Sequence record: MH051913
Source: Enterobacteria phage vB_EcoM_IME281
Reading direction: 5' to 3' (one strand)
Length of the DNA: 64,000 nt
Shown here: positions 10,664 to 59,966 of the stretch, piece after piece
How positions within the stretch are numbered: the first letter of the stretch is position 1
Layout: each line of letters starts with the position of its first letter
Program-made: the position numbers and the translations under genes
The notes under the pieces: generated by a model
Databases searched by the model: none
Told to the model about the DNA's origin: nothing
What the model saw: the letters and a program-made list of their open reading frames with translations, nothing else

Positions 10664-10950
10664 ATAAAATTGAAATTGAAATCCCAGAACACAACGACGA
10701 GAAATCTGCAGAAAAGGCTATCTATGCTCTTCTGAATAAAGTGAATACCATCGAACATGAATGTGAAGCTATTGCCGATAAGTATGGTATCCAATTCGGT
10801 ACCGGTGATTATGGTTCAGGCCGTACATATTATCCTGTCGGTTATGAATGCTCCCAGTGGTTTAAAGATGAAATTGAAAACAACGGCGGTGAAGTTGAAA
10901 ATGGTGTCGTTACAGTTGGTGCTTGGGTCTCCTCTTCGGCAATGTGCTAA
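10660..10950 (+). CDS. small protein, WVSSS-C tandem paralog 1 (96 aa)
   Basis: Ends GAWVSSSAMC; first of five tandem paralogs. Confidence 0.55.
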   Translation: MNKIEIEIPEHNDEKSAEKAIYALLNKVNTIEHECEAIADKYGIQFGTGDYGSGRTYYPVGYECSQWFKDEIENNGGEVENGVVTVGAWVSSSAMC

Positions 10951-10959
10951 GGAAACGCT

Positions 10960-11241
10960 ATGATGAATGATTACCGTAAAAATAAAGAGCTGGCTGAAGC
11001 AGTAAATGATATTCATAAAGCTATTCGTCGTGCTGAGGAAATTGCAGACAAATATGAGACTCATTTTAATATATACCCTGCTCGCGGTATGGGCGGTGAC
11101 TATTATTCTCCTGGCGCCCTGAAAGCCGACCTTGCTCACTGGGAAGAATACGGTGAAGCTCAGTACGCTATTGTAAACCAACATGATTACACTACCAGCC
11201 TAGAAAATGGTGGATGGGTATCCTCTTCTTCTGAATGTTAA
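10960..11241 (+). CDS. small protein, WVSSS-C tandem paralog 2 (93 aa)
   Basis: Ends GGWVSSSSEC; shares ADKY motif with paralog 1. Confidence 0.55.
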   Translation: MMNDYRKNKELAEAVNDIHKAIRRAEEIADKYETHFNIYPARGMGGDYYSPGALKADLAHWEEYGEAQYAIVNQHDYTTSLENGGWVSSSSEC

Positions 11242-30536: not shown

Positions 30537-31547
30537 ATGACCCGTACTGAATACATCAATGCCTTTACTAAGTATATCACTGACAATACCCCTCCATTAA
30601 CACCGTATGAGGTGATAGTTTCTAATATCAATAAATGGGTAGACCAAATTGATAAAGCATTATCCAATTGTTTCAAAGATGAAATCGAAAAGATTGCAGG
30701 CCGTTTGTTTATTTCTGATATCGTAGATACATTTAAAGGTTCTCGACTGCTTTCACGGTTGGTCAATAAGGATATCCTTTCAGAGTTTGGCAAAGAGAAA
30801 CACCCAGGTTCCAGCCACGTTGTTAGCTACCAATGGTTTGGTGATGTTTTAAAAAGCTATATCAAAATGAAAGGTACCGACCCTAAGGGCTTATTTCCTT
30901 TACGTTGGGCCGGTGAATTTAAGGCTAACTCCGCATTAATTCTAAAAGCAGCAACCAAAACCTTTGTAAAGGGTGATTGTCGTACTATCCACCCTATGGC
31001 TGATGGCATGATTAAAACAAACAACTATAAAGGGAAGGTGCTTATTTCTATTATTTGGTCGCCTAGTTGGAAACCTAAAGAAGTTGAAGTTTCGAAATAC
31101 CAAGATATTTCCTACAATACCCTGAATATTGTAGAACAAGCTTTAGCTTTGATGGATACAGTAGAGAAATATGAGATTCAAGAAATCAACCACCACTTAG
31201 GCTGGAAAGGATATGAAGTTTTAGTAACAGTTCGCGAAATCAAATGCCCTGTTCCAAAAACCGACGCTGAAATTTACCAAGAAAAATGTGAGGAAATTGT
31301 GAACACTGATAAAGAGCCTGCAACCTTAGAAGACTTGATTGATGAGCTGAATGGCCCAAGGCTACTGGCCTGTGCACCAATTACTAAATCCAAGCCGCCA
31401 GAAGTAGTTGCTCTGGAAAAAGCATATAAAGATGCCCTTGCTATCAACAAAAAACTGACCGGACAATATACTGCTGCCAAGAAACTTTGGGAAGAGTCTA
31501 CCAATCGTCTGGATAAACTGGAACAAGCCCTGGAGCTGTTGAAATGA
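30537..31547 (+). CDS. hypothetical protein (336 aa)
   Basis: M21 of track ORF (GTG 30477); GAGGAG RBS; C-terminal coiled coil. Confidence 0.5.
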   Translation: MTRTEYINAFTKYITDNTPPLTPYEVIVSNINKWVDQIDKALSNCFKDEIEKIAGRLFISDIVDTFKGSRLLSRLVNKDILSEFGKEKHPGSSHVVSYQWFGDVLKSYIKMKGTDPKGLFPLRWAGEFKANSALILKAATKTFVKGDCRTIHPMADGMIKTNNYKGKVLISIIWSPSWKPKEVEVSKYQDISYNTLNIVEQALALMDTVEKYEIQEINHHLGWKGYEVLVTVREIKCPVPKTDAEIYQEKCEEIVNTDKEPATLEDLIDELNGPRLLACAPITKSKPPEVVALEKAYKDALAINKKLTGQYTAAKKLWEESTNRLDKLEQALELLK

Positions 31548-31765
31548 AATACCAATTAGCTGACGATATTGACCAAACTATTCCTGATTGGAATGCTGTT
31601 ATTAAAATTGTCGAACGTCGTGAAAAAGCTTCTAAGAATGTTCCAAACTGTCCTATGTGTGGAACTGAACAGGTCCAGTTGGTTCAATGGCGCCATAATC
31701 CGCTTCAGTATAAATGCCGCCATTGTAAACACCGATTTGAGCGAGACGAAAATGGCAAAGCGTAA
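31544..31765 (+). CDS. zinc-ribbon small protein (73 aa)
   Basis: CPMCG..x15..CRHCKH two CxxC pairs. Confidence 0.45.
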
Positions 31766-31988
31766 AGAATATGTAGAGGCCGCCGATAAGGCGGTTCGTG
31801 AACTTACTCTGGCTTATTATAAAGAGCATGGTAAATTCCCGGACAGTTATTCAGTATTGAAATCTGCTTTAACTCGTTCATATAATAATATGCGTTCAGA
31901 AGTTTATGATATTATGGACAAACATAAAGAACAAACCGGTCAATACCCGGATTATACTGAGACCTTCAAACAAGTATTAGGAATTTAA
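31752..31988 (+). CDS. hypothetical protein (78 aa)
   Basis: M62 of track ORF 31569; start uncertain. Confidence 0.35.
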
Positions 31989-31989
31989 A

Positions 31990-32253
31990 ATGTTTAAAAT
32001 TTATGGTTATGATTCAAATATTCATCGTTGTGTTTTCTGTGATAATGCTAAACGTTTTTTGGATGTTAAGAAACAACCTTACGAATTCATCAACGTTATG
32101 CCAGAAAAAGGTGTGTTTGATGATGAGAAGATTGCTCAACTCCTGGCTGCACTTGGTCGCGAATCTCAAATCGGTTTGACTATGCCGCAAGTATTTGCCC
32201 CTGACGGAACTTCTATTGGTGGCTTCGACCAACTGCGAGAATATTTCAAATGA
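31990..32253 (+). CDS. nrdC: glutaredoxin/thioredoxin NrdC
   Basis: 87 aa; MFKIYGYDSNIHRCVFCDNAKR..LTMPQVFAPDG..GGFDQLREYFK close to recalled T4 NrdC; CVFC redox motif. Confidence 0.9.
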   Translation: MFKIYGYDSNIHRCVFCDNAKRFLDVKKQPYEFINVMPEKGVFDDEKIAQLLAALGRESQIGLTMPQVFAPDGTSIGGFDQLREYFK

Positions 32254-32411
32254 TTGAATTAATGTTGGGTATTTTGTATCTTATCATTGGCATTGGTTAT
32301 GCTAAGACCTTAGCTAAATTGGATGATTCCGGTGATTTTTGTGGGTGGTTGACGTCTATGATTTGTTGGCCTTTATTTCTGGTTGGTGCTTCATTCTGGA
32401 ACTTCAAATGA
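32250..32411 (+). CDS. small membrane protein (53 aa)
   Basis: Not in ORF track; ATGA overlaps at both ends; hydrophobic. Confidence 0.4.
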   Translation: MIELMLGILYLIIGIGYAKTLAKLDDSGDFCGWLTSMICWPLFLVGASFWNFK

Positions 32412-40182: not shown

Positions 40183-40442
40183 CTTTAGATGAATTCAAAA
40201 AATCGGGACTTGAACTGGAACACGACTGTATAGTTATTGATGATGATGGTCAACCTAGTACAATTAAGTTCTGGTTTGAAGCCGTGAGCACTCGTGATAC
40301 CGGCGAGCTTATTAAAGTTTATGTTGCTACCGATTGGGCTGTAGAATTTAGCTTTAATGTAATGGTAGATGATACTCCAGAAACATTAATTCATATGGCT
40401 GAATCATGCATCAAGGATGCTTATAACGATGAAGACTTTTAA
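40179..40442 (+). CDS. hypothetical acidic protein (87 aa)
   Basis: ORF track; between 47 and 46. Confidence 0.45.
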   Translation: MTLDEFKKSGLELEHDCIVIDDDGQPSTIKFWFEAVSTRDTGELIKVYVATDWAVEFSFNVMVDDTPETLIHMAESCIKDAYNDEDF

Positions 40443-42111
40443 GTTAAAGAAAGTAACGTATAAAAATATTATGTCGGTCGGGCAGCAGCCCATTACAATC
40501 CAACTTGATAAGGTCCAAAAGACCTTAGTCACTGGTAAAAATGGTGCAGGGAAATCAACATTCCTTGAAGCTGTAACATTTGCTCTGTTCGGTAAGCCTT
40601 TTCGTGATGTTAAGAAAGGGCAGTTGATTAACTCAAGTAACAAGAAAGACCTTTTGGTCGAACTGTGGATGGAATATGATGTCAAAGAATACTATATCAA
40701 ACGCGGGCAAAAACCCAACGTTTTTGAAATCTCTTGTGACGGTGAACGTCTTGATGAATCTGCCAGCAGTAAAGACTTCCAAGCGGAATTTGAACAGCTT
40801 ATCGGAATGTCCTACGCAAGCTTCAAACAAATTGTCGTACTCGGCACAGCTGGATATACCCCTTTTATGGGCCTATCCACTCCTGCAAGAAGAAAACTCG
40901 TCGAAGACCTCTTAGAGGTTTCCGTATTAGCGGATATGGATAAGTTGAACAAATCTTTGATTCGTGAGACTAATAGCCAAATCCAAGTAATAGACGTTAA
41001 GCAAGATTCTATTACCCAACAAATTAAAATTTATAATGACAACGAAGAACGCCAACGTAAATTATCTGGCGAGAACGCGGCCCGTCTACAATTAATGTAT
41101 GATGAGCTCGTTAAAGAAGCCAGGACTGCGAAGGCGAGCATAGAATCCCTGACTGATGAATTACTCAATGTTATCGTAGATGATGACCCTAGCGATTCCA
41201 TGAGTGACCTGAGTAATAAAGGATTTGCAATCAAAAATGATATGGCAACCTTTACAAAGGTGGTTAAGTTATACGAAACCGGTGGTCACTGCCCTACGTG
41301 TATGCAAGGGTTAGAAGAGCATGGTAATATCCTTACTAAAATTAAGGATAAAAACTTTGAGCTTCAAAAATCTTTGGATAAGATTAATGAGCAATACCAA
41401 GAGCTCAAGCTCATTAAAGACCAAGTAACCGAACAACGCAATAAAGCATTGGCTATTAAATCTCAGATAGCTACTCATAAGCAGCAAGCCATTACTGCTG
41501 TAGAGAAAGCCAAAAAGGTTAAGGTATTAATTGACCAAGCGGCAGCTGAGTTCGTAAGTAATGCCGAAGAGATTGCTGCGCTTCAAGCAGAGCTTGATAA
41601 AATCGTCTCTACCAAATCGTCCTTGGTAATGGAAAAATATCATCGTGGAATTCTGACAGAAATGTTGAAGGATGCAGGTATTAAAGGTTCCATTATTAAG
41701 AAATACATTCCTATCTTTAATAAGCAGATTAATTCTTATTTGAAGATTATGGAAGCGGACTACGTCTTTACCCTAGACGAAGAATTCAATGAGACGATTA
41801 AATCACGTGGACGTGAAGACTTTAGTTATGCTTCATTTTCACAGGGTGAGAAAGCACGTATTGATATCGCACTACTTTTTACCTGGCGTGATATTGCTGA
41901 AAAAGTCAGTGGAGTCCACATTAGTACATTAGTGTTGGATGAAGTTTTTGATGGAGCAGTTGACGCTGAGGCTGTTAAGGCGATTGCAAGTATTCTTAAT
42001 AGTCTTGAAGACAGTAATGTTTTTATAATCAGCCACAGGGACCATGACCCTCAAGCATATGGTCAGCATTTACAAATGAAAAAGGTTGGTCGATTTACAA
42101 TTATGGAATAA
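40429..42111 (+). CDS. 46: recombination endonuclease subunit gp46 (Rad50/SbcC-like ATPase)
   Basis: 560 aa from M5 of track ORF, same length as T4 gp46; Walker A GKNGAGKST, CxxC hook, C-terminal LILDEVFDG. Confidence 0.9.
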   Translation: MKTFKLKKVTYKNIMSVGQQPITIQLDKVQKTLVTGKNGAGKSTFLEAVTFALFGKPFRDVKKGQLINSSNKKDLLVELWMEYDVKEYYIKRGQKPNVFEISCDGERLDESASSKDFQAEFEQLIGMSYASFKQIVVLGTAGYTPFMGLSTPARRKLVEDLLEVSVLADMDKLNKSLIRETNSQIQVIDVKQDSITQQIKIYNDNEERQRKLSGENAARLQLMYDELVKEARTAKASIESLTDELLNVIVDDDPSDSMSDLSNKGFAIKNDMATFTKVVKLYETGGHCPTCMQGLEEHGNILTKIKDKNFELQKSLDKINEQYQELKLIKDQVTEQRNKALAIKSQIATHKQQAITAVEKAKKVKVLIDQAAAEFVSNAEEIAALQAELDKIVSTKSSLVMEKYHRGILTEMLKDAGIKGSIIKKYIPIFNKQINSYLKIMEADYVFTLDEEFNETIKSRGREDFSYASFSQGEKARIDIALLFTWRDIAEKVSGVHISTLVLDEVFDGAVDAEAVKAIASILNSLEDSNVFIISHRDHDPQAYGQHLQMKKVGRFTIME

Positions 42112-42127
42112 GCCTCTTATTGAGGCT
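42111..42127. terminator. hairpin between convergent genes (possible bidirectional terminator)
   Basis: AGCCTC-TTATT-GAGGCT; T-rich flank on plus strand only. Confidence 0.4.
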
Positions 42128-42833
42128 TCATTTTACAGTTATCGAAATGCCAACGATTCATATTACCGGAATTCCCTTGTTTACCACAATGAGGGCATTC
42201 TACCTTCTTTTCTGATTTTTTGCGTCCGTTAGGATTTTTCTTACAAAAAACTTTATGAGCCGCAATAACACAGGATTTTCCTGAAAGGCCACAGAATTCA
42301 CATTCCACAATTTTATGGACCATGTTTTCTAGGCCTTTCTTTATTTTTAATTTTTGCTCTTCAGATATAGAGCGGTCTACTTTATTAGGGCCTTTAGGAC
42401 AGTTATCGAAATGCCATCTGTTCATATTGCCTACCAATCCAGTTTTGCCACAGTGTGGACAGGTAACTCTAGGCTTTTTTAAAGCGGAAATTGACATTTT
42501 CTTTCTGGTTTCTTCCGAGAATTCTTTATCCTTTTGGGCTTCTGAATTCTTACGACGAAGCCATCCAAATAATTTATTTTTAGACCTATCAGCTTTTGGT
42601 GAGCTAACTGTCATCATTCTTGCTGCATAGACTAACGATGCGTTATCTGGATGGATTTTAACTAACAACTGGTGAGCCAAGTAATGTTCTTCAGGTGTTA
42701 AGTCTACCAAGTTTAAAGCGTCATCCGTCCCACCCATGCATTGTGGTATAATGTGATGACGTTCTTTATAGGTAGTTAAATTTCTATTAACTGCTCGTTG
42801 AATAAGCTTTTCGTATATTGATTTATAATTCAT
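42117..42833 (-). mobile_element. free-standing HNH homing endonuclease gene (238 aa)
   Basis: Only opposite-strand gene in the replication block; MNYKSIYEKL start typical of T4 Mob/Seg enzymes; HNH core HHIIPQCMGGTDDALNLVDLTPEEHYLAH; two C-terminal repeats CPHCGK..GNMNRWHFDNC; inserted where T4 has only 45.2. Confidence 0.75.
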
Positions 42834-42876
42834 TATCAAATCCTTATTTGACACAGCGACCGATAAAGATATTTAT

Positions 42877-43071
42877 ATGGCTTCCAATTTTATAACAGGC
42901 CAGCATTTGTTGGCCGTTCCAGAAATAAAGAGATATGTTTTAGTTAACAACTTCTCTGGAGACGAACATCTTGTTACTGAAGATTATCTCCAAAATGCTT
43001 TTAAGTCAGAATATGTTACAATCATGTCAAATAGAAATCCAGCATGGTTTGTCTATGAGTACTTTGATTAA
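42877..43071 (+). CDS. hypothetical protein (64 aa)
   Basis: ORF track; size and position similar to T4 45.2. Confidence 0.35.
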   Translation: MASNFITGQHLLAVPEIKRYVLVNNFSGDEHLVTEDYLQNAFKSEYVTIMSNRNPAWFVYEYFD

Positions 43072-43073
43072 AT

Positions 43074-43097
43074 TGCTTTAAAATATTGATTTATAAT
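43074..43097 (+). promoter_or_regulatory. candidate MotA-dependent middle promoter
   Basis: MotA-box-like TGCTTTA, 11-nt gap, TATAAT. Confidence 0.45.
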
Positions 43098-43127
43098 ACA
43101 TTTACCAACTAAATGAGAGAAAATATT

Positions 43128-43547
43128 ATGTTTGCTACTTCTAATGGCGTTACCGTTAAAGATATCCAAGTTAAAACCATCCGTACTGATTCCAACCCAC
43201 ATAATCAGAACCGTATCCGTAAATCATGGGTACTGAATATTGATACCGACTCTGCACGCCGACTGCAGTCTCTTCCACAAGAAACCAAGTTTATGCTGTA
43301 CAGTATCATCGATAATGATGTATCTGATAAGTGGATTGAAATCATGCGTAAACACTTTAAAGATTCTTTGGCTGCAGGTGCTAAACTTGTTATCGACCGC
43401 GACGGTTCTGAACGTTTAGAAGATGATTATTGCGTCGACCCTGATGAGCAGTTGCTTGAAGCCGGTTCTATTATTGCTTCCAAGATTCCAGAGTATATTG
43501 AATCTCTGCCTGAATCAATCCGTAAACAAATGATCGTAATTGCTTAA
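43128..43547 (+). CDS. rpbA: RNA polymerase binding protein RpbA-like (139 aa)
   Basis: Position between gp46 and gp45 as T4 rpbA; M6 of track ORF; assignment positional. Confidence 0.45.
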   Translation: MFATSNGVTVKDIQVKTIRTDSNPHNQNRIRKSWVLNIDTDSARRLQSLPQETKFMLYSIIDNDVSDKWIEIMRKHFKDSLAAGAKLVIDRDGSERLEDDYCVDPDEQLLEAGSIIASKIPEYIESLPESIRKQMIVIA

Positions 43548-43572
43548 TAATTTGACTTGATAAGGAAACATT

Positions 43573-44271
43573 ATGAAATTCTCTAAAGAAACCCTGAACA
43601 TTCTTAAAAACTTCTCTGGTATTAACCCAGGCATTATGCTTAAACCAGGTAACACCATTCTGACCCGATCTGTTACCGGTGCAAGTTATGGTGAAGCTAC
43701 TGTAAGTGATACCTTCGATATCGAAGCAGCAATCTATGATTTGAATGGCTTCTTAAGTATTCTGTCTTTGGTATCGGAAAGTGCTGAAGTTTCGGTAAGT
43801 GAAGACCAAACAACATTAATTATTAAAGACCAACGTTCAACAATTAAGTGGCCTATTGCCGACCCAAGCACAATCGCATTCCCAAGTAAAGCTATTCCGT
43901 TCCCTGTGGCCGAAGTTATTTTCGACCTGAAAGCCGAAGATTATCAACAGTTGATGCGTGTGTCCTCTGGTCTGAGTATTGATACATTTGCAATCACTGT
44001 AGACGATGGTAAAATTGTTATCAACGGTTATAAACAAGTCGACGATAAAGAATTAACTCGCCCATTGTATTCTCTGGTCGTGGCCGACCATGATGGTCCT
44101 GACTTTAAGTTCATCATTAACAAAACCAATATGAAAATGATGCCTGCTGATTATCATGTGTTGTTATGGGCGCGCGGTGAAGGTCAGGATGCTCGATTTG
44201 CAGCTAAGTTTGAAGGTACACAAGCTTCTTATGTATTAGCTATGGAAGCAGGCTCAAGCCACTCGTTCTAA
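43573..44271 (+). CDS. 45: sliding clamp gp45
   Basis: 232 aa; MKFSKETLNILKNF..NPGIMLK..AIYDLNGFL..ITVDDGKIVINGY matches recalled T4 gp45. Confidence 0.9.
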   Translation: MKFSKETLNILKNFSGINPGIMLKPGNTILTRSVTGASYGEATVSDTFDIEAAIYDLNGFLSILSLVSESAEVSVSEDQTTLIIKDQRSTIKWPIADPSTIAFPSKAIPFPVAEVIFDLKAEDYQQLMRVSSGLSIDTFAITVDDGKIVINGYKQVDDKELTRPLYSLVVADHDGPDFKFIINKTNMKMMPADYHVLLWARGEGQDARFAAKFEGTQASYVLAMEAGSSHSF

Positions 44272-44332
44272 AGCATAGGGAGGAATTTCCTCCCTTGGAG
44301 TATAATGTAAAAACAAACCTGAGGAAATTAAT

Positions 44333-45292
44333 ATGCTTACAGTAAATAATAATGAATTCATGTGGGAACAGAAATATCGTCCAGGTACTTTATCTGAATG
44401 TATTCTGCCTGCTCATGATAAAGAAACTCTCCAAGCCATTGTTAATAAGGGCCTAATCCCTAACATTATCCTAGTCTCTGCTTCACCAGGCACAGGTAAA
44501 ACTACCGTGGCTAAAGCATTGTGTGCTGATACAAATTCAGACATGTTGTTTGTTAACGGTTCCGACTGTCGTATTGATTTCGTTCGTAACGAACTTACTC
44601 GTTTTGCATCTTCTAAATCTATCGAAGGTAAACGTAAGGTAATTGTTATTGACGAATTCGACCGTGCTGGTGTTGCTGAAGCTCAACGCCACCTTCGTTC
44701 ATTCTTAGAGGCCTATTCCTCAAACTGTTCTGTAATTATTACAGCAAACAATATTGATGGTATCATCGGTCCACTTCAATCCCGTTGTCGTGTAATTAAA
44801 TTTGGTGAAGCCACTCCAGCTGACCAAACAGCCATGATGAAAGAAATGATTCATCGTGCCGTAGCAATTTGTAAAAACGAAAATATCGAAGTCGAAGACC
44901 TTAAAGTTATTGCGGCTTTAGTTAAACAAAACTTCCCTGACTTCCGTAAAACAGTTAACCAACTGGACCGTTATTCCTCAAGTGGTAAAATCGATACAGG
45001 CATTTTGAGTATTGTAATGAATACCAATTCGCCTATTGATGAAGTAGTGGCTGCACTGAAAGATAAAAACTTTAAAGAACTCCGTGCATTAGCTCCTCGT
45101 CATGTCAATGATTATGCCAACTTTATTATGGCATTGGCTAACGAACTCTATGGTAAATTGCCTGGACCAAGCATTGTTAGAATGTATGAAATCATCGGTG
45201 AAAATAACCAATACCATGGTATTGCTGCTAACCCAGAAATTCACCTGACTTATCTGTTTATCCAACTTGCTCTGGAGCTCCAATGGCTATAA
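44333..45292 (+). CDS. 44: clamp loader large subunit gp44 (AAA+)
   Basis: 319 aa; Walker A SPGTGKTT, Walker B VIVIDEFDR, SRC motif QSRCRV; strong match to recalled T4 gp44. Confidence 0.95.
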   Translation: MLTVNNNEFMWEQKYRPGTLSECILPAHDKETLQAIVNKGLIPNIILVSASPGTGKTTVAKALCADTNSDMLFVNGSDCRIDFVRNELTRFASSKSIEGKRKVIVIDEFDRAGVAEAQRHLRSFLEAYSSNCSVIITANNIDGIIGPLQSRCRVIKFGEATPADQTAMMKEMIHRAVAICKNENIEVEDLKVIAALVKQNFPDFRKTVNQLDRYSSSGKIDTGILSIVMNTNSPIDEVVAALKDKNFKELRALAPRHVNDYANFIMALANELYGKLPGPSIVRMYEIIGENNQYHGIAANPEIHLTYLFIQLALELQWL

Positions 45293-59584: not shown

Positions 59585-59750
59585 GATTTCTGTATTCGAG
59601 TTGTTCGAAGAATATGAAATCGTATCAAAAGACCAAGAAGCTATCCATGTTATTGCTGATGATGGTGTGACCTGGATTATCCCACTTTACCACGAAGATA
59701 CGTACGAAGTCACTGACGCCAACGGTGACAAAGCTATTTTCGTAATATAA
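59559..59750 (+). CDS. hypothetical protein (63 aa)
   Basis: ORF track. Confidence 0.4.
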   Translation: MSAMCTGSKISVFELFEEYEIVSKDQEAIHVIADDGVTWIIPLYHEDTYEVTDANGDKAIFVI

Positions 59751-59766
59751 ATAAGGCCAGGAGCCT

Positions 59767-59928
59767 ATGAAATCTTTTAAAGAAGTTATGAACGAAGATA
59801 TGGTCGCAGGCGATGCTGGTGGAAATCCATCTAATATTGCCTCCGGAACTACCTCAGGCGCAGTCGTCAACAAAGGGCCTGAACAAATCCCATCTAAAAA
59901 GCGTAAAGAAAAATCCGAAAACGAATGA
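59767..59928 (+). CDS. hypothetical low-complexity protein (53 aa)
   Basis: Not in ORF track; AGGAG RBS; Gly/Ser-rich then basic tail. Confidence 0.4.
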   Translation: MKSFKEVMNEDMVAGDAGGNPSNIASGTTSGAVVNKGPEQIPSKKRKEKSENE

Positions 59929-59966
59929 TATAATGGCTCTATTAATTTAGAGCCCAAGGAAAAATA

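What the first reader, a model, noticed from the sequence alone, without database searches (positions are those of the whole stretch)
42117..42833. Free-standing HNH homing endonuclease on the opposite strand between gp46 and rpbA
This is the only minus-strand gene inside the replication/recombination block. It has the MNYK... start and HNH core typical of T4 Mob/Seg-type enzymes plus two C-terminal repeats CPHCGK..GNMNRWHFDNC (likely zinc-binding DNA-recognition modules). Its 3' end shares a hairpin with the end of gene 46. It is a candidate mobile element whose cleavage site may lie in the 46/rpbA region of endonuclease-less relatives.
Basis: partly seen in the sequence, partly recalled or inferred. 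Interest (0 to 1): 0.5.

Follow-up and report, generated by a model that had tools for sequence, protein, structure and literature searches.

The report
Mob-type homing endonuclease gene cassette
This is an ordinary selfish "homing endonuclease" gene of the phage T4 Mob type, already annotated in close relatives, and comparison with those relatives shows that the cassette was copied recently into this phage between two conserved replication/recombination genes.

Summary
The ORF is real: 42117-42833, minus strand, 238 aa. The window is a JS10/EcWhh-1-like Dhakavirus (a T4-type phage).

**Protein.** Residues 1-116 are 46-48% identical to T4 MobE and MobB, and the HNH residues are intact.

**Location.** It lies between gene 46 and gene 45.2, not directly beside rpbA.

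The interpretation passes both of them:
- Empty alleles exist. In JS10 and EcWhh-1, genes 46 and 45.2 overlap by ATGA.
- The catalytic residues are conserved.

**Evidence of recent transfer.**
- The window is recipient-type at 138 informative sites outside 41899-42886 and donor-type (Bp7/MX01/KIT01) at all 64 inside.
- The cassette is 98.0-98.6% identical to those phages, while the flanks are 89-94% identical.

**Wider picture.**
- The same 717-nt gene sits at the same junction in five genera, with dN/dS of 0.04-0.2.
- In the near-isogenic phage UP19, a GIY-YIG endonuclease occupies this junction instead.

**Verdict.** Near-identical copies are already annotated as "putative homing endonuclease", so this is already known as an annotation. 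Its target site and activity have never been tested. Interest is low to moderate.

The parts
42117..42833 (-). Free-standing homing endonuclease gene, 238 codons plus stop. It encodes a Mob-type HNH domain followed by I-TevIII-type zinc fingers.
   Evidence: ORF and translation. phrog_655 'homing endonuclease' at 4e-69. 97-99% aa identity to annotated 'putative homing endonuclease' genes of MX01, Bp7, KIT01 and 04086. AlphaFold2 mean pLDDT 93.7.
42672..42764 (-). HNH beta-beta-alpha-metal core, residues 24-54 (E24, H26, H27, N41, H50, H54).
   Evidence: These residues are invariant in 47 homologues. The model has strands at 24-27 and 42-45 and a helix at 47-60. The family profile aligns this stretch to the HNH motif of E. 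coli McrA (6ghc, E 5e-4) and of Cas8-HNH. Residues 1-116 are 46% identical to T4 MobE.
42399..42461 (-). Zinc finger 1, CPHCGKTGLVGNMNRWHFDNC (residues 125-145, CX2CX12HX3C).
   Evidence: Motif scan. Predicted beta-beta-alpha module at 122-144. It forms a DNA-level repeat with finger 3.
42243..42302 (-). Zinc finger 2, CEFCGLSGKSCVIAAHKVFC (residues 178-197, CX2CX11HX3C).
   Evidence: Motif scan and alignment to the first finger of the T4 I-TevIII remnant. Predicted beta-beta-alpha module at 175-196.
42135..42197 (-). Zinc finger 3, CPHCGKQGNSGNMNRWHFDNC (residues 213-233). This is the one finger that is invariant in the family.
   Evidence: C213, C216, H229 and C233 are invariant in 47 homologues. 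Residues 157-236 align to the two I-TevIII fingers at E 3e-9. phrog_12324 'intron-like DNA endonuclease' at 3.5e-7.
42099..42140 (.). Hairpin at the convergent 3' ends of gene 46 and the HEG; a likely two-way terminator. The HEG stop codon is in the loop, and gene 46's stop (42109-42111) is in the stem.
   Evidence: dG -14.2 kcal/mol with z -4.3 on the + strand; -11.7 kcal/mol with z -3.2 on the - strand. It is absent from empty alleles. An AAGCCTC-N5-GAGGCTT hairpin is kept in four genera and is replaced by a different palindrome in RB32.
42870..42877 (-). TATAAATA, the T4 late-promoter consensus, 37 nt upstream of the HEG start codon. It overlaps the A of the gene 45.2 ATG.
   Evidence: Exact match, and one of only two on the minus strand of the window. 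The motif count alone is not above chance. TATAAATA is present 41-53 nt upstream of the HEG ATG in 5 of 6 HEG-bearing loci from five genera; the sixth has CATAAATA.
42841..42845 (-). Shine-Dalgarno AAGGA, 7 nt upstream of the HEG ATG.
   Evidence: Read directly from the sequence. It is kept as AAGGA or AAGGG in most relatives.
42805..42829 (+). Possible MotA-type middle promoter (AGCTTTT-N12-TATAAT) on the sense strand of genes 46/45.2, lying antisense to HEG codons 2-10. It could drive 45.2. This is an inference.
   Evidence: This pattern occurs 8 times on the + strand and once on the - strand of the window, against 0.7 expected. It is kept in 5 of 6 HEG-bearing loci. In T4 and P896 the cassette replaces an intergenic GCTTTA-N11-12-TATAAT promoter; RB69 has the same elements 15 nt apart. 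Caveat: the same bases encode conserved HEG residues.
41899..42886 (.). Imported cassette: the last 213 nt of gene 46, the hairpin, the HEG, its promoter, and the first 10 nt of gene 45.2. The crossovers lie within 41758-41898 and 42887-42920.
   Evidence: At sites where empty alleles (JS10, EcWhh-1) and HEG-bearing alleles (Bp7, MX01, KIT01) differ, the window is empty-type at 31 of 31 sites in 40695-41757, HEG-type at 64 of 64 sites in 41899-42886, and empty-type at 107 of 107 sites in 42921-44614. Cassette identity to those phages is 98.0-98.6%, against 89-94% for the flanks.
41899..42111 (+). Diverged 3' block of gene 46 (Walker B to H-loop coding region) that travels with the HEG.
   Evidence: 54-80% identity to the empty alleles, against 96-100% upstream. 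Of 71 codons, 34 differ synonymously and 12 non-synonymously from JS10; the preceding 79 codons have 3 differences. Outside the HEG-bearing Dhakavirus records, most matches are only 60-80% identical.
40417..42111 (+). Gene 46 (Rad50/SbcC-like recombination nuclease subunit), the left flank.
   Evidence: phrog_77 at 1e-190; Pfam SMC_N and AAA_23.
42877..43071 (+). Gene 45.2, the right flank. Its first codons (MASNF, against MSDF in empty alleles) come from the cassette.
   Evidence: Pfam Gp45_2 at 5e-26. Junction alignment.

Best explanation
This is a free-standing homing endonuclease gene (HEG) of the T4 Mob family.

**What is shown**
- The protein joins a MobE/MobB-type HNH nuclease domain (residues 1 to about 116) to an extended DNA-binding region. 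That region holds two NUMOD3-like helices and three CCHC zinc fingers of the kind that bind zinc and DNA in I-TevIII.
- The gene sits in a roughly 990-bp cassette between genes 46 and 45.2, convergent with gene 46.
- The cassette brings its own late-promoter consensus, ribosome-binding site and two-way hairpin. It also brings a new stop region for gene 46 and a new start region for gene 45.2.
- The cassette is absent from the window's nearest relatives. It is present, nearly identical, in more distant Dhakaviruses.

**What is inferred**
- During a mixed infection the enzyme, made late, nicks or cuts the endonuclease-less allele near the 46/45.2 junction.
- The phage recombination machinery repairs the break from the HEG-bearing genome. 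This copies in the HEG plus a short stretch of flanking DNA.
- The HEG-bearing allele is immune because the insertion, and the linked changes, destroy the site.
- The only differences between HEG-bearing and empty alleles that recur in all four genera compared lie in the last ~11 nt of gene 46, the intergenic spacer and the first ~3 codons of gene 45.2. The recognition site is therefore most likely next to the junction.
- The diverged 213-nt end of gene 46 is most likely donor DNA carried along with the HEG.
For: **Homology and catalytic residues**
- phrog_655 at 4e-69.
- BLASTP to T4 MobE gives 46% identity at E 3e-30, and to MobB 48% at E 3e-29.
- The HNH residues and the last zinc finger are invariant in 47 homologues.
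- The family profile hits the HNH motifs of McrA and Cas8-HNH in the PDB.
- The AlphaFold2 model has mean pLDDT 93.7, with one beta-beta-alpha HNH core and three beta-beta-alpha fingers.

**Zinc fingers**
- The motif matches the CX2CX12-13HX3C fingers that bind zinc and are needed for DNA binding in I-TevIII (PMC1865063).
- Residues 157-236 align with the T4 I-TevIII remnant at E 3e-9.

**Mobility**
- Empty alleles exist in JS10 and EcWhh-1.
- The informative-site pattern in the window is clean: 31 recipient-type, 64 donor-type, then 107 recipient-type sites.
- The cassette is 98.0-98.6% identical to Bp7, MX01, KIT01 and 04086, against 89-94% for the flanks. The window's flanks are 98.7-100% identical to the empty phages.
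- The same 717-nt gene lies at the same junction in Dhakavirus, Gaprivervirus, Marfavirus, Mosigvirus and Tequatrovirus. Its distribution is sporadic: about 14 of 155 Mosigvirus records and 6 of about 40 Gaprivervirus records carry it.

**Selection and expression signals**
- dN/dS is 0.04-0.2.
- The late promoter and the hairpin are conserved across genera.

**Precedent**
- MobE nicks the neighbouring gene in a way that depends on its HNH motif, and it is inherited through double-strand-break repair (PMC2790892).
Against: - No cleavage or cross was done, so neither the activity nor the target site is shown.
- The Pfam HNH models stay below their gathering scores: HNH_5 scores 14.9 against 27.5 bits.
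- These genomes are mosaic even where there is no HEG. Examples are 40800-40899 and 43300-43499. A patch on its own therefore does not prove homing.
- The diverged gene 46 block is present in three genera but absent from the Mosigvirus pair. Its role in immunity is therefore doubtful.
- Placing the target at the junction assumes that specificity is shared across genera and that RB69-type alleles are sensitive.
Confidence: 0.8

Rival explanations
1. The cassette spread by ordinary homologous recombination between co-infecting T4-type phages. The endonuclease contributed nothing and may be inactive or irrelevant to its own spread.
For: These phages are mosaic at many places that carry no HEG: 40800-40899 is 78-79% identical and 43300-43499 is 83% identical to some relatives. 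No activity data exist.
Against: - The imported tract brackets the HEG tightly. The crossovers fall in the first homologous stretches on either side.
- A second, unrelated HEG cassette at the same junction shows the same signature: 100% identity over 1051 nt between UP19 and UGJNEcP3, against 94% and 90% in the flanks.
- The catalytic residues are invariant and dN/dS is 0.04-0.2. An inert passenger would not be expected to show this.
Confidence: 0.1
2. The enzyme is kept mainly because it benefits the phage. It would act as a weapon that cuts gene 46 or 45.2 of competing phages (interference competition, marker exclusion), or the cassette would be retained because it supplies a promoter for 45.2. 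It would not be a purely selfish element.
For: - Long persistence at one site in five genera, under purifying selection.
- The cassette replaces the native middle promoter of the empty alleles and carries a promoter-like site facing 45.2.
- Published precedents: marker exclusion by T4 endonucleases (PMC2988022) and an intron endonuclease used in phage competition (PMC11620839).
Against: - The distribution is sporadic, with most genomes in each genus empty.
- This reading does not exclude homing; it uses the same biochemical step.
- The promoter-like bases also encode conserved residues of the HEG.
Confidence: 0.08
3. The gene is a decaying relic whose product no longer cuts DNA, like T4 mobA or the T4 I-TevIII remnant.
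For: Many T4 endonuclease genes are defective (PMC2988022, Table 1). The Pfam HNH score is sub-threshold.
Against: - The ORF is full length, at 717 nt, in all ten copies compared.
- There are no frameshifts.
- All HNH and zinc-finger ligands are kept.
- dN/dS is 0.04-0.07 against the closest copies.
Confidence: 0.02

Closest known systems
T4 MobE (and the uncharacterised T4 MobB and MobC): free-standing HNH homing endonucleases
   Same: - The N-terminal 116 residues are 46% identical to MobE, 48% to MobB and 37% to MobC, including the MNYxxIY start and the HHIIPxCMGGxDDxxNLVxLTxxEH core.
- It is free-standing, between conserved DNA-metabolism genes.
- It is sporadically distributed.
- It spreads together with flanking DNA. 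MobE is shown to do this through an HNH-dependent nick in nrdB (PMC2790892).
   Different: - The DNA-binding part is different. MobE (141 aa) has no zinc finger, and MobB has a different C-terminal domain.
- The insertion site is different: 46|45.2 rather than nrdA|nrdB or a-gt|a-gt.2.
- It is transcribed against its neighbours from its own late promoter, whereas mobE has no promoter and is co-transcribed with nrdA (PMC2790892).
I-TevIII of phage RB3 (nrdB intron HNH endonuclease)
   Same: - The architecture is the same: an N-terminal HNH domain followed by C-terminal CX2CX12-13HX3C zinc fingers.
- Residues 157-236 align with the two fingers of the T4 I-TevIII remnant at E 3e-9. phrog_12324 scores 3.5e-7.
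- In I-TevIII these fingers bind zinc and are required for DNA binding (PMC1865063).
   Different: - It is free-standing, not intron-encoded.
- It has three fingers rather than two.
- Whether it dimerises to make a double-strand break, as I-TevIII does, is unknown.
RB32 ORF054w and the annotated 'putative homing endonuclease' genes of Bp7, MX01 and KIT01
   Same: - Same gene, same junction, same orientation.
- 97-99% aa identity to the MX01, Bp7, KIT01 and 04086 copies (04086 is unannotated there), and 64% to RB32 ORF054w, which is annotated 'similar to mobB'.
   Different: Here the gene sits in a JS10/EcWhh-1-type genome, and no record in the phage collection holds that combination. None of these copies has been tested experimentally as far as the searched literature shows.
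Seg-type (GIY-YIG) endonuclease at the same junction in UP19 and UGJNEcP3
   Same: - Same insertion point between genes 46 and 45.2.
- It also travels with a diverged 3' end of gene 46.
- It shares the terminal CCHC zinc finger: 49% identity over 39 aa by BLASTP, and 62% over the 26-aa core by TBLASTN.
   Different: - The catalytic domain is unrelated: phrog_314 at 2.7e-50, with a weak match to TIGR01453 group I intron endonuclease.
- It is on the + strand.
- It is translationally coupled to both neighbours through TAATG overlaps.

Membership tests
HNH (beta-beta-alpha-metal) nuclease superfamily | Conserved His (general base), Asn and His/Asn (metal ligand) in the HNH motif | tested here: met
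   H26, H27, N41, H50 and H54 are invariant in 47 homologues. The family profile aligns residues 21-50 to the HNH motif of McrA (6ghc, E 5e-4) and of Cas8-HNH (E 0.009).
HNH (beta-beta-alpha-metal) nuclease superfamily | Beta-hairpin followed by a helix (beta-beta-alpha fold) | tested here: met
HNH (beta-beta-alpha-metal) nuclease superfamily | Match to a Pfam HNH model at its gathering score | tested here: not met
   HNH_5 scores 14.9 bits against a cut-off of 27.5. The RB32 homologue scores 16.9 on PF01844 against 21.4. Pfam covers the Mob clade poorly. This lowers the formal Pfam assignment but does not affect the homology to MobE.
HNH (beta-beta-alpha-metal) nuclease superfamily | Metal-dependent DNA cleavage | not testable with these tools
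   This needs a biochemical assay.
T4 Mob-type free-standing homing endonucleases | Sequence homology to T4 Mob proteins | tested here: met
   MobE 46% identity at E 3e-30; MobB 48% at E 3e-29; MobC 37% at E 2e-19.
T4 Mob-type free-standing homing endonucleases | Lies between conserved genes, not in an intron or intein | tested here: met
   It lies between gene 46 and gene 45.2. In empty alleles the two genes abut or overlap.
T4 Mob-type free-standing homing endonucleases | Sporadic presence, with empty-site alleles in close relatives | tested here: met
   JS10, EcWhh-1 and about 40 other Dhakavirus records are empty, while five distinct phages carry the gene. The same holds in Mosigvirus and Gaprivervirus.
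T4 Mob-type free-standing homing endonucleases | Transfer together with flanking DNA (co-conversion) | tested here: met
   A donor-type tract at 41899-42886 sits inside a recipient-type background: 64, 31 and 107 informative sites with no exceptions. The cassette is 98.0-98.6% identical to the donor-type phages, against 89-94% for the flanks. This is a footprint from natural history, not an observed cross.
T4 Mob-type free-standing homing endonucleases | Site-specific cleavage of the endonuclease-less allele, with the own allele resistant | not testable with these tools
   This is only inferred. The differences shared by all four pairs of HEG-bearing and empty alleles are confined to the junction.
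I-TevIII-type zinc-finger DNA-binding domain | CX2CX12-13HX3C fingers homologous to those of I-TevIII | tested here: met
   Three motifs, at residues 125-145, 178-197 (CX2CX11HX3C) and 213-233. Residues 157-236 align to the T4 I-TevIII remnant at E 3e-9. The motif definition is taken from PMC1865063.
I-TevIII-type zinc-finger DNA-binding domain | Zinc binding and a requirement for DNA binding | not testable with these tools
   Shown for I-TevIII only (PMC1865063).
I-TevIII (intron-encoded endonuclease) | Encoded inside a group I intron | tested here: not met
   The gene is intergenic, on the opposite strand from its neighbours, and no intron context is seen in the junction alignments. It works like I-TevIII in architecture but is not an intron endonuclease.

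The most novel reading that the evidence does not exclude
The 46|45.2 junction would be a contested site where two unrelated nuclease classes use the same terminal CCHC zinc finger to find the same target: the Mob-type HNH here and a Seg-type GIY-YIG in near-isogenic UP19. Each cassette would carry its own deeply diverged, cleavage-resistant 3' end of the Rad50-like gene 46, so competition between endonucleases would drive diversification of the Walker B/H-loop coding region of an essential recombination gene. The HNH cassette would also make itself hard to lose by carrying, antisense within its first ten codons, the middle promoter that gene 45.2 needs.
Probability: 0.15. Interest if true: 0.5.

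Novelty: already known. Interest (0 to 1): 0.28.

Why it matters
As an element it adds little. Mob-type endonuclease genes in T4-type phages are textbook, and this one is already annotated in GenBank.

Its value is as a ready-made test system:
- Three near-isogenic natural phages differ at one junction. EcWhh-1 and JS10 are empty, this phage carries the HNH cassette, and UP19 carries the GIY-YIG cassette.
- Crosses among them could give the target site and strand-break type of a Mob enzyme. Only MobE has such data so far.
- The same crosses could show what happens when two endonucleases compete for one site.

Tried and rejected
- **PDB sequence search with the single protein.** It returned only chance matches to flavivirus envelope proteins. 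The family profile was needed to reach HNH structures.
- **Target inside the diverged 213-nt end of gene 46.** I first took this block to be the immunity determinant, because it recurs in Dhakavirus, Gaprivervirus and Tequatrovirus. The Mosigvirus pair weakens this idea. NRG-P0074 and RB69 are identical up to 11 nt before the gene 46 stop.
- **A donor lineage for that block.** None was found. Apart from the HEG-bearing Dhakavirus records, nearly all matches are 60-80% identical, and T4, T2 and JS10 are all about 72-75%.
- **A terminase-associated packaging HNH.** Rejected on context and on homology to the Mob proteins.
- **The SegH/Hef paper (PMC1275590).** It is not held in the library.
- **Other Mob- or Seg-like genes in the window.** None was found by TBLASTN with eleven endonuclease queries.
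- **The RB32 row of the dN/dS table.** It is unreliable because an indel shifts the codon register.
Full report
**1. The observation**

The window has a 239-codon reading frame on the minus strand at 42117-42833, beginning MNYKSIYEKL.

Its neighbours on the plus strand are:
- gene 46 at 40417-42111 (phrog_77, 1e-190);
- gene 45.2 at 42877-43071 (Pfam Gp45_2, 5e-26);
- rpbA at 43113-43547 (Pfam Phage_RpbA, 3.5e-46);
- genes 45, 44 and 62 further on.

The gene therefore lies between 46 and 45.2, not directly beside rpbA.

They are also a 33-nt direct repeat at 88% identity in the DNA. A third, divergent finger of the same CX2C...HX3C type lies between them at residues 178-197.

The hairpin at the meeting point of the two genes is real. 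It folds at -14.2 kcal/mol (z -4.3) on the plus strand and -11.7 kcal/mol (z -3.2) on the minus strand. The HEG stop codon lies in its loop.

Among ORFs of 110 aa or more, the other minus-strand ones either overlap plus-strand genes or, for the two that stand free, have no PHROG match. A TBLASTN search with eleven T4-type endonucleases finds no other such gene in the 64 kb.

**2. What the protein is**

- PHROGs places it in phrog_655, 'homing endonuclease', at 4e-69.
- Residues 1-116 are 46% identical to T4 MobE (E 3e-30), 48% to MobB and 37% to MobC.
- A search of the large protein collection finds 3428 relatives. In an alignment of 47 diverse ones, E24, H26, H27, P30, G35, N41, H50 and H54 are invariant, as are C213, C216, H229 and C233.
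- The family profile aligns residues 21-50 with the HNH motif of E. coli McrA (E 5e-4) and of Cas8-HNH fusions.
- AlphaFold2 gives a confident model with mean pLDDT 93.7. It has a beta-beta-alpha unit at residues 24-60 and three small beta-beta-alpha fingers.
- Pfam's own HNH models stay below threshold, and whole-model structure searches are not significant. I record these as formal failures. They do not outweigh the direct homology to MobE.
- The finger motif is the CX2CX12-13HX3C motif that binds zinc and is needed for DNA binding in I-TevIII (PMC1865063).
- Residues 157-236 align with the two fingers kept in the T4 I-TevIII remnant at E 3e-9.

In short, the protein is a MobE/MobB-type nuclease head on an I-TevIII-type DNA-binding tail with one extra finger.

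**3. Is it a mobile element?**

The window is a Dhakavirus. Its flanks are 98.7-100% identical to JS10, EcWhh-1 and UP19.

JS10 and EcWhh-1 have nothing at this place: genes 46 and 45.2 overlap as GAATGAGTGATTTT. About 40 of the 54 Dhakavirus records are like this. Five distinct phages (Bp7, MX01, KIT01, 04086, FB) carry the gene.

At sites where the empty phages and Bp7/MX01/KIT01 differ, the window shows this pattern with no exceptions:

| Window region | Informative sites | Type |
|---|---|---|
| 40695-41757 | 31 | empty-type |
| 41899-42886 | 64 | HEG-type |
| 42921-44614 | 107 | empty-type |

The cassette is 98.0-98.6% identical to those four phages, while the flanks are only 89-94% identical. 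This is the footprint expected of a gene conversion that copied the cassette into a JS10-like genome.

The gene is intact (717 nt) in all ten copies examined. Its dN/dS is 0.04-0.07 against the closest copies and 0.08-0.2 against other genera (the RB32 value is unreliable because of an indel).

The same gene, at 64-73% amino-acid identity, lies at the same junction and in the same orientation in four other genera: Gaprivervirus P479, Marfavirus pzk-kv8, Mosigvirus NRG-P0074 and Tequatrovirus RB32. In each genus only a minority of genomes carry it.

**4. A second endonuclease at the same junction**

UP19 is 98.9-99.9% identical to the window in the flanks. It holds a 227-aa plus-strand gene exactly between 46 and 45.2, joined to both by TAATG overlaps.

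This gene is Seg-like: phrog_314 at 2.7e-50, with a weak match to TIGR01453.

Its cassette is 100% identical over 1051 nt to that of UGJNEcP3, although the flanks of those two phages are only 94% and 90% identical. It therefore carries the same signature of recent spread.

Its last 26-39 residues are the same CCHC finger as in the window's protein. That finger matches the family consensus, so I do not read the sharing as evidence for a common target.

**5. Expression signals**

- *Late promoter.* On the HEG strand, TATAAATA (the T4 late-promoter consensus, from established knowledge) lies at 42870-42877, 37 nt upstream of the ATG. An AAGGA ribosome-binding site follows it. The motif is present 41-53 nt upstream of the HEG ATG in five of six loci from five genera. 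Its count in the window is not above chance, so the argument rests on position and conservation.
- *Hairpin.* The hairpin is absent from empty alleles. Related HEG-bearing loci keep it, or replace it with another palindrome.
- *Displaced native promoter.* In T4 and P896 (empty alleles) the spacer between genes 46 and 45.2 contains a MotA-box middle promoter, GCTTTA-N11-12-TATAAT. RB69 has the same two elements 15 nt apart, outside the pattern I scanned for. The cassette replaces this spacer.
- *Possible replacement promoter.* The cassette has AGCTTTT-N12-TATAAT on the plus strand at 42805-42829, antisense to HEG codons 2-10, and this is kept in five of six loci. The pattern occurs 8 times on the plus strand and once on the minus strand of the window, against 0.7 expected.
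- *Caveat.* The same bases encode conserved HEG residues, so the promoter reading is an inference. Promoters for host genes embedded in T4 endonuclease genes are known for segG, segA, segE, mobB and mobC (PMC2988022).

**6. Where the enzyme probably acts**

The last 213 nt of gene 46 are only 54-80% identical between the window and the empty alleles, whereas the sequence upstream is 96-100% identical. Most of the change is synonymous: 34 synonymous and 12 non-synonymous codon differences in 71 codons. Apart from the other HEG-bearing Dhakaviruses, nearly all matches in the collection are only 60-80% identical.

A similar block accompanies the gene in Gaprivervirus and Tequatrovirus, and it also accompanies the GIY-YIG cassette. 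I first took this block to be the immunity determinant.

The Mosigvirus pair argues against that. NRG-P0074 and RB69 are identical up to 11 nt before the gene 46 stop.

The only differences shared by all four pairs of HEG-bearing and empty alleles are in three places:
- the last ~11 nt of gene 46;
- the spacer;
- the first ~3 codons of gene 45.2.

If specificity is shared across genera, the recognition site lies at the junction and is destroyed by the insertion. The diverged block is then donor DNA carried along. I put this at roughly 55%.

A site further inside gene 46 remains possible. Free-standing T4 endonucleases often cut hundreds of base pairs from their own gene (PMC2988022).

Whether the enzyme nicks, as MobE does (PMC2790892), or cuts both strands as a dimer, as I-TevIII does (PMC1865063), cannot be told from sequence.

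**7. Rivals**

- *Ordinary recombination without endonuclease action.* This could produce such a patch, since these genomes are mosaic elsewhere. It does not explain two independent cassettes each tightly bracketed by crossovers, nor the strong purifying selection.
- *A role as a competition weapon, or retention through the embedded promoter.* This is compatible with homing rather than opposed to it.
- *A dead relic.* This is unlikely given the intact motifs.

**8. Novelty and verdict**

Near-identical genes are annotated as 'putative homing endonuclease' in Bp7 and MX01 and as 'mob-like endonuclease' in KIT01. The RB32 homologue is annotated 'similar to mobB'.

I found no paper that tests this particular gene.

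The element is therefore already known in kind and by annotation. What is new here is the comparative evidence that it moved recently into this genome, and that the junction is shared with a GIY-YIG rival.

Noticed in passing
L003 1612-2295 (UP19) and L010 1607-2290 (UGJNEcP3); equivalent to the window junction at 42111/42877: A different, plus-strand, Seg-like (GIY-YIG) endonuclease gene occupies exactly the same 46|45.2 junction in phages whose flanks are up to 99.9% identical to the window. It is joined to both neighbours by TAATG overlaps and ends in the same CCHC zinc finger. Its cassette is 100% identical between two phages whose flanks are 90-94% identical.
   Followed up: partly
L001 3766-4266 (Bp7) and the same place in L006 (MX01); equivalent to window 44272-44332: Bp7 and MX01 carry another endonuclease gene (phrog_314 at 3.6e-17, with a NUMOD3 motif) between genes 45 and 44. 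The window has only a short spacer there.
   Followed up: partly
L018 2179-3069 (Mosigvirus AV109): A 296-aa gene matching phrog_7504 'homing endonuclease' (2e-16) sits between rpbA and gene 45. The 46-45.2-rpbA-45-44 block therefore has at least four different endonuclease insertion points among relatives.
   Followed up: no
L008 1613-2329 (phage FB), compared with window 42117-42833: The FB copy is a chimera. Codons 1 to about 150 are 93-98% identical in DNA to the window's. Codons from about 150 to 238 (fingers 2 and 3) and the adjoining end of gene 46 are only 56-78% identical. This implies recombination inside the endonuclease gene.
   Followed up: partly
window 40800-40899, 43300-43499 and 44000-44099: Short patches that are only 78-86% identical to the Bp7/MX01/KIT01/04086/FB group and UGJNEcP3, though not to all of them at every patch, while remaining 97-100% identical to JS10, EcWhh-1 and UP19. 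No endonuclease gene is nearby. This is ordinary mosaicism, and a patch alone should therefore not be over-read.
   Followed up: no
window 42815-42829 and 43083-43097: The 15 nt ATATTGATTTATAAT occur twice. One copy is antisense to HEG codons 2-6. The other lies in the strong MotA-type promoter TGCTTTAAAATATTGATTTATAAT just upstream of rpbA.
   Followed up: no
L001 1-1428 (Bp7): In the Bp7 record, gene 46 is annotated as two CDS (record coordinates 30909-32147 and 32227-32409). The second ends well before the position of the stop in the other phages. This is probably a frameshift or a sequencing error in that record.
   Followed up: no
window 10816-11184 and 59625-59957, minus strand: These are the only other free-standing minus-strand ORFs of 110 aa or more. 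Neither has a PHROG match, so they are probably not genes.
   Followed up: partly
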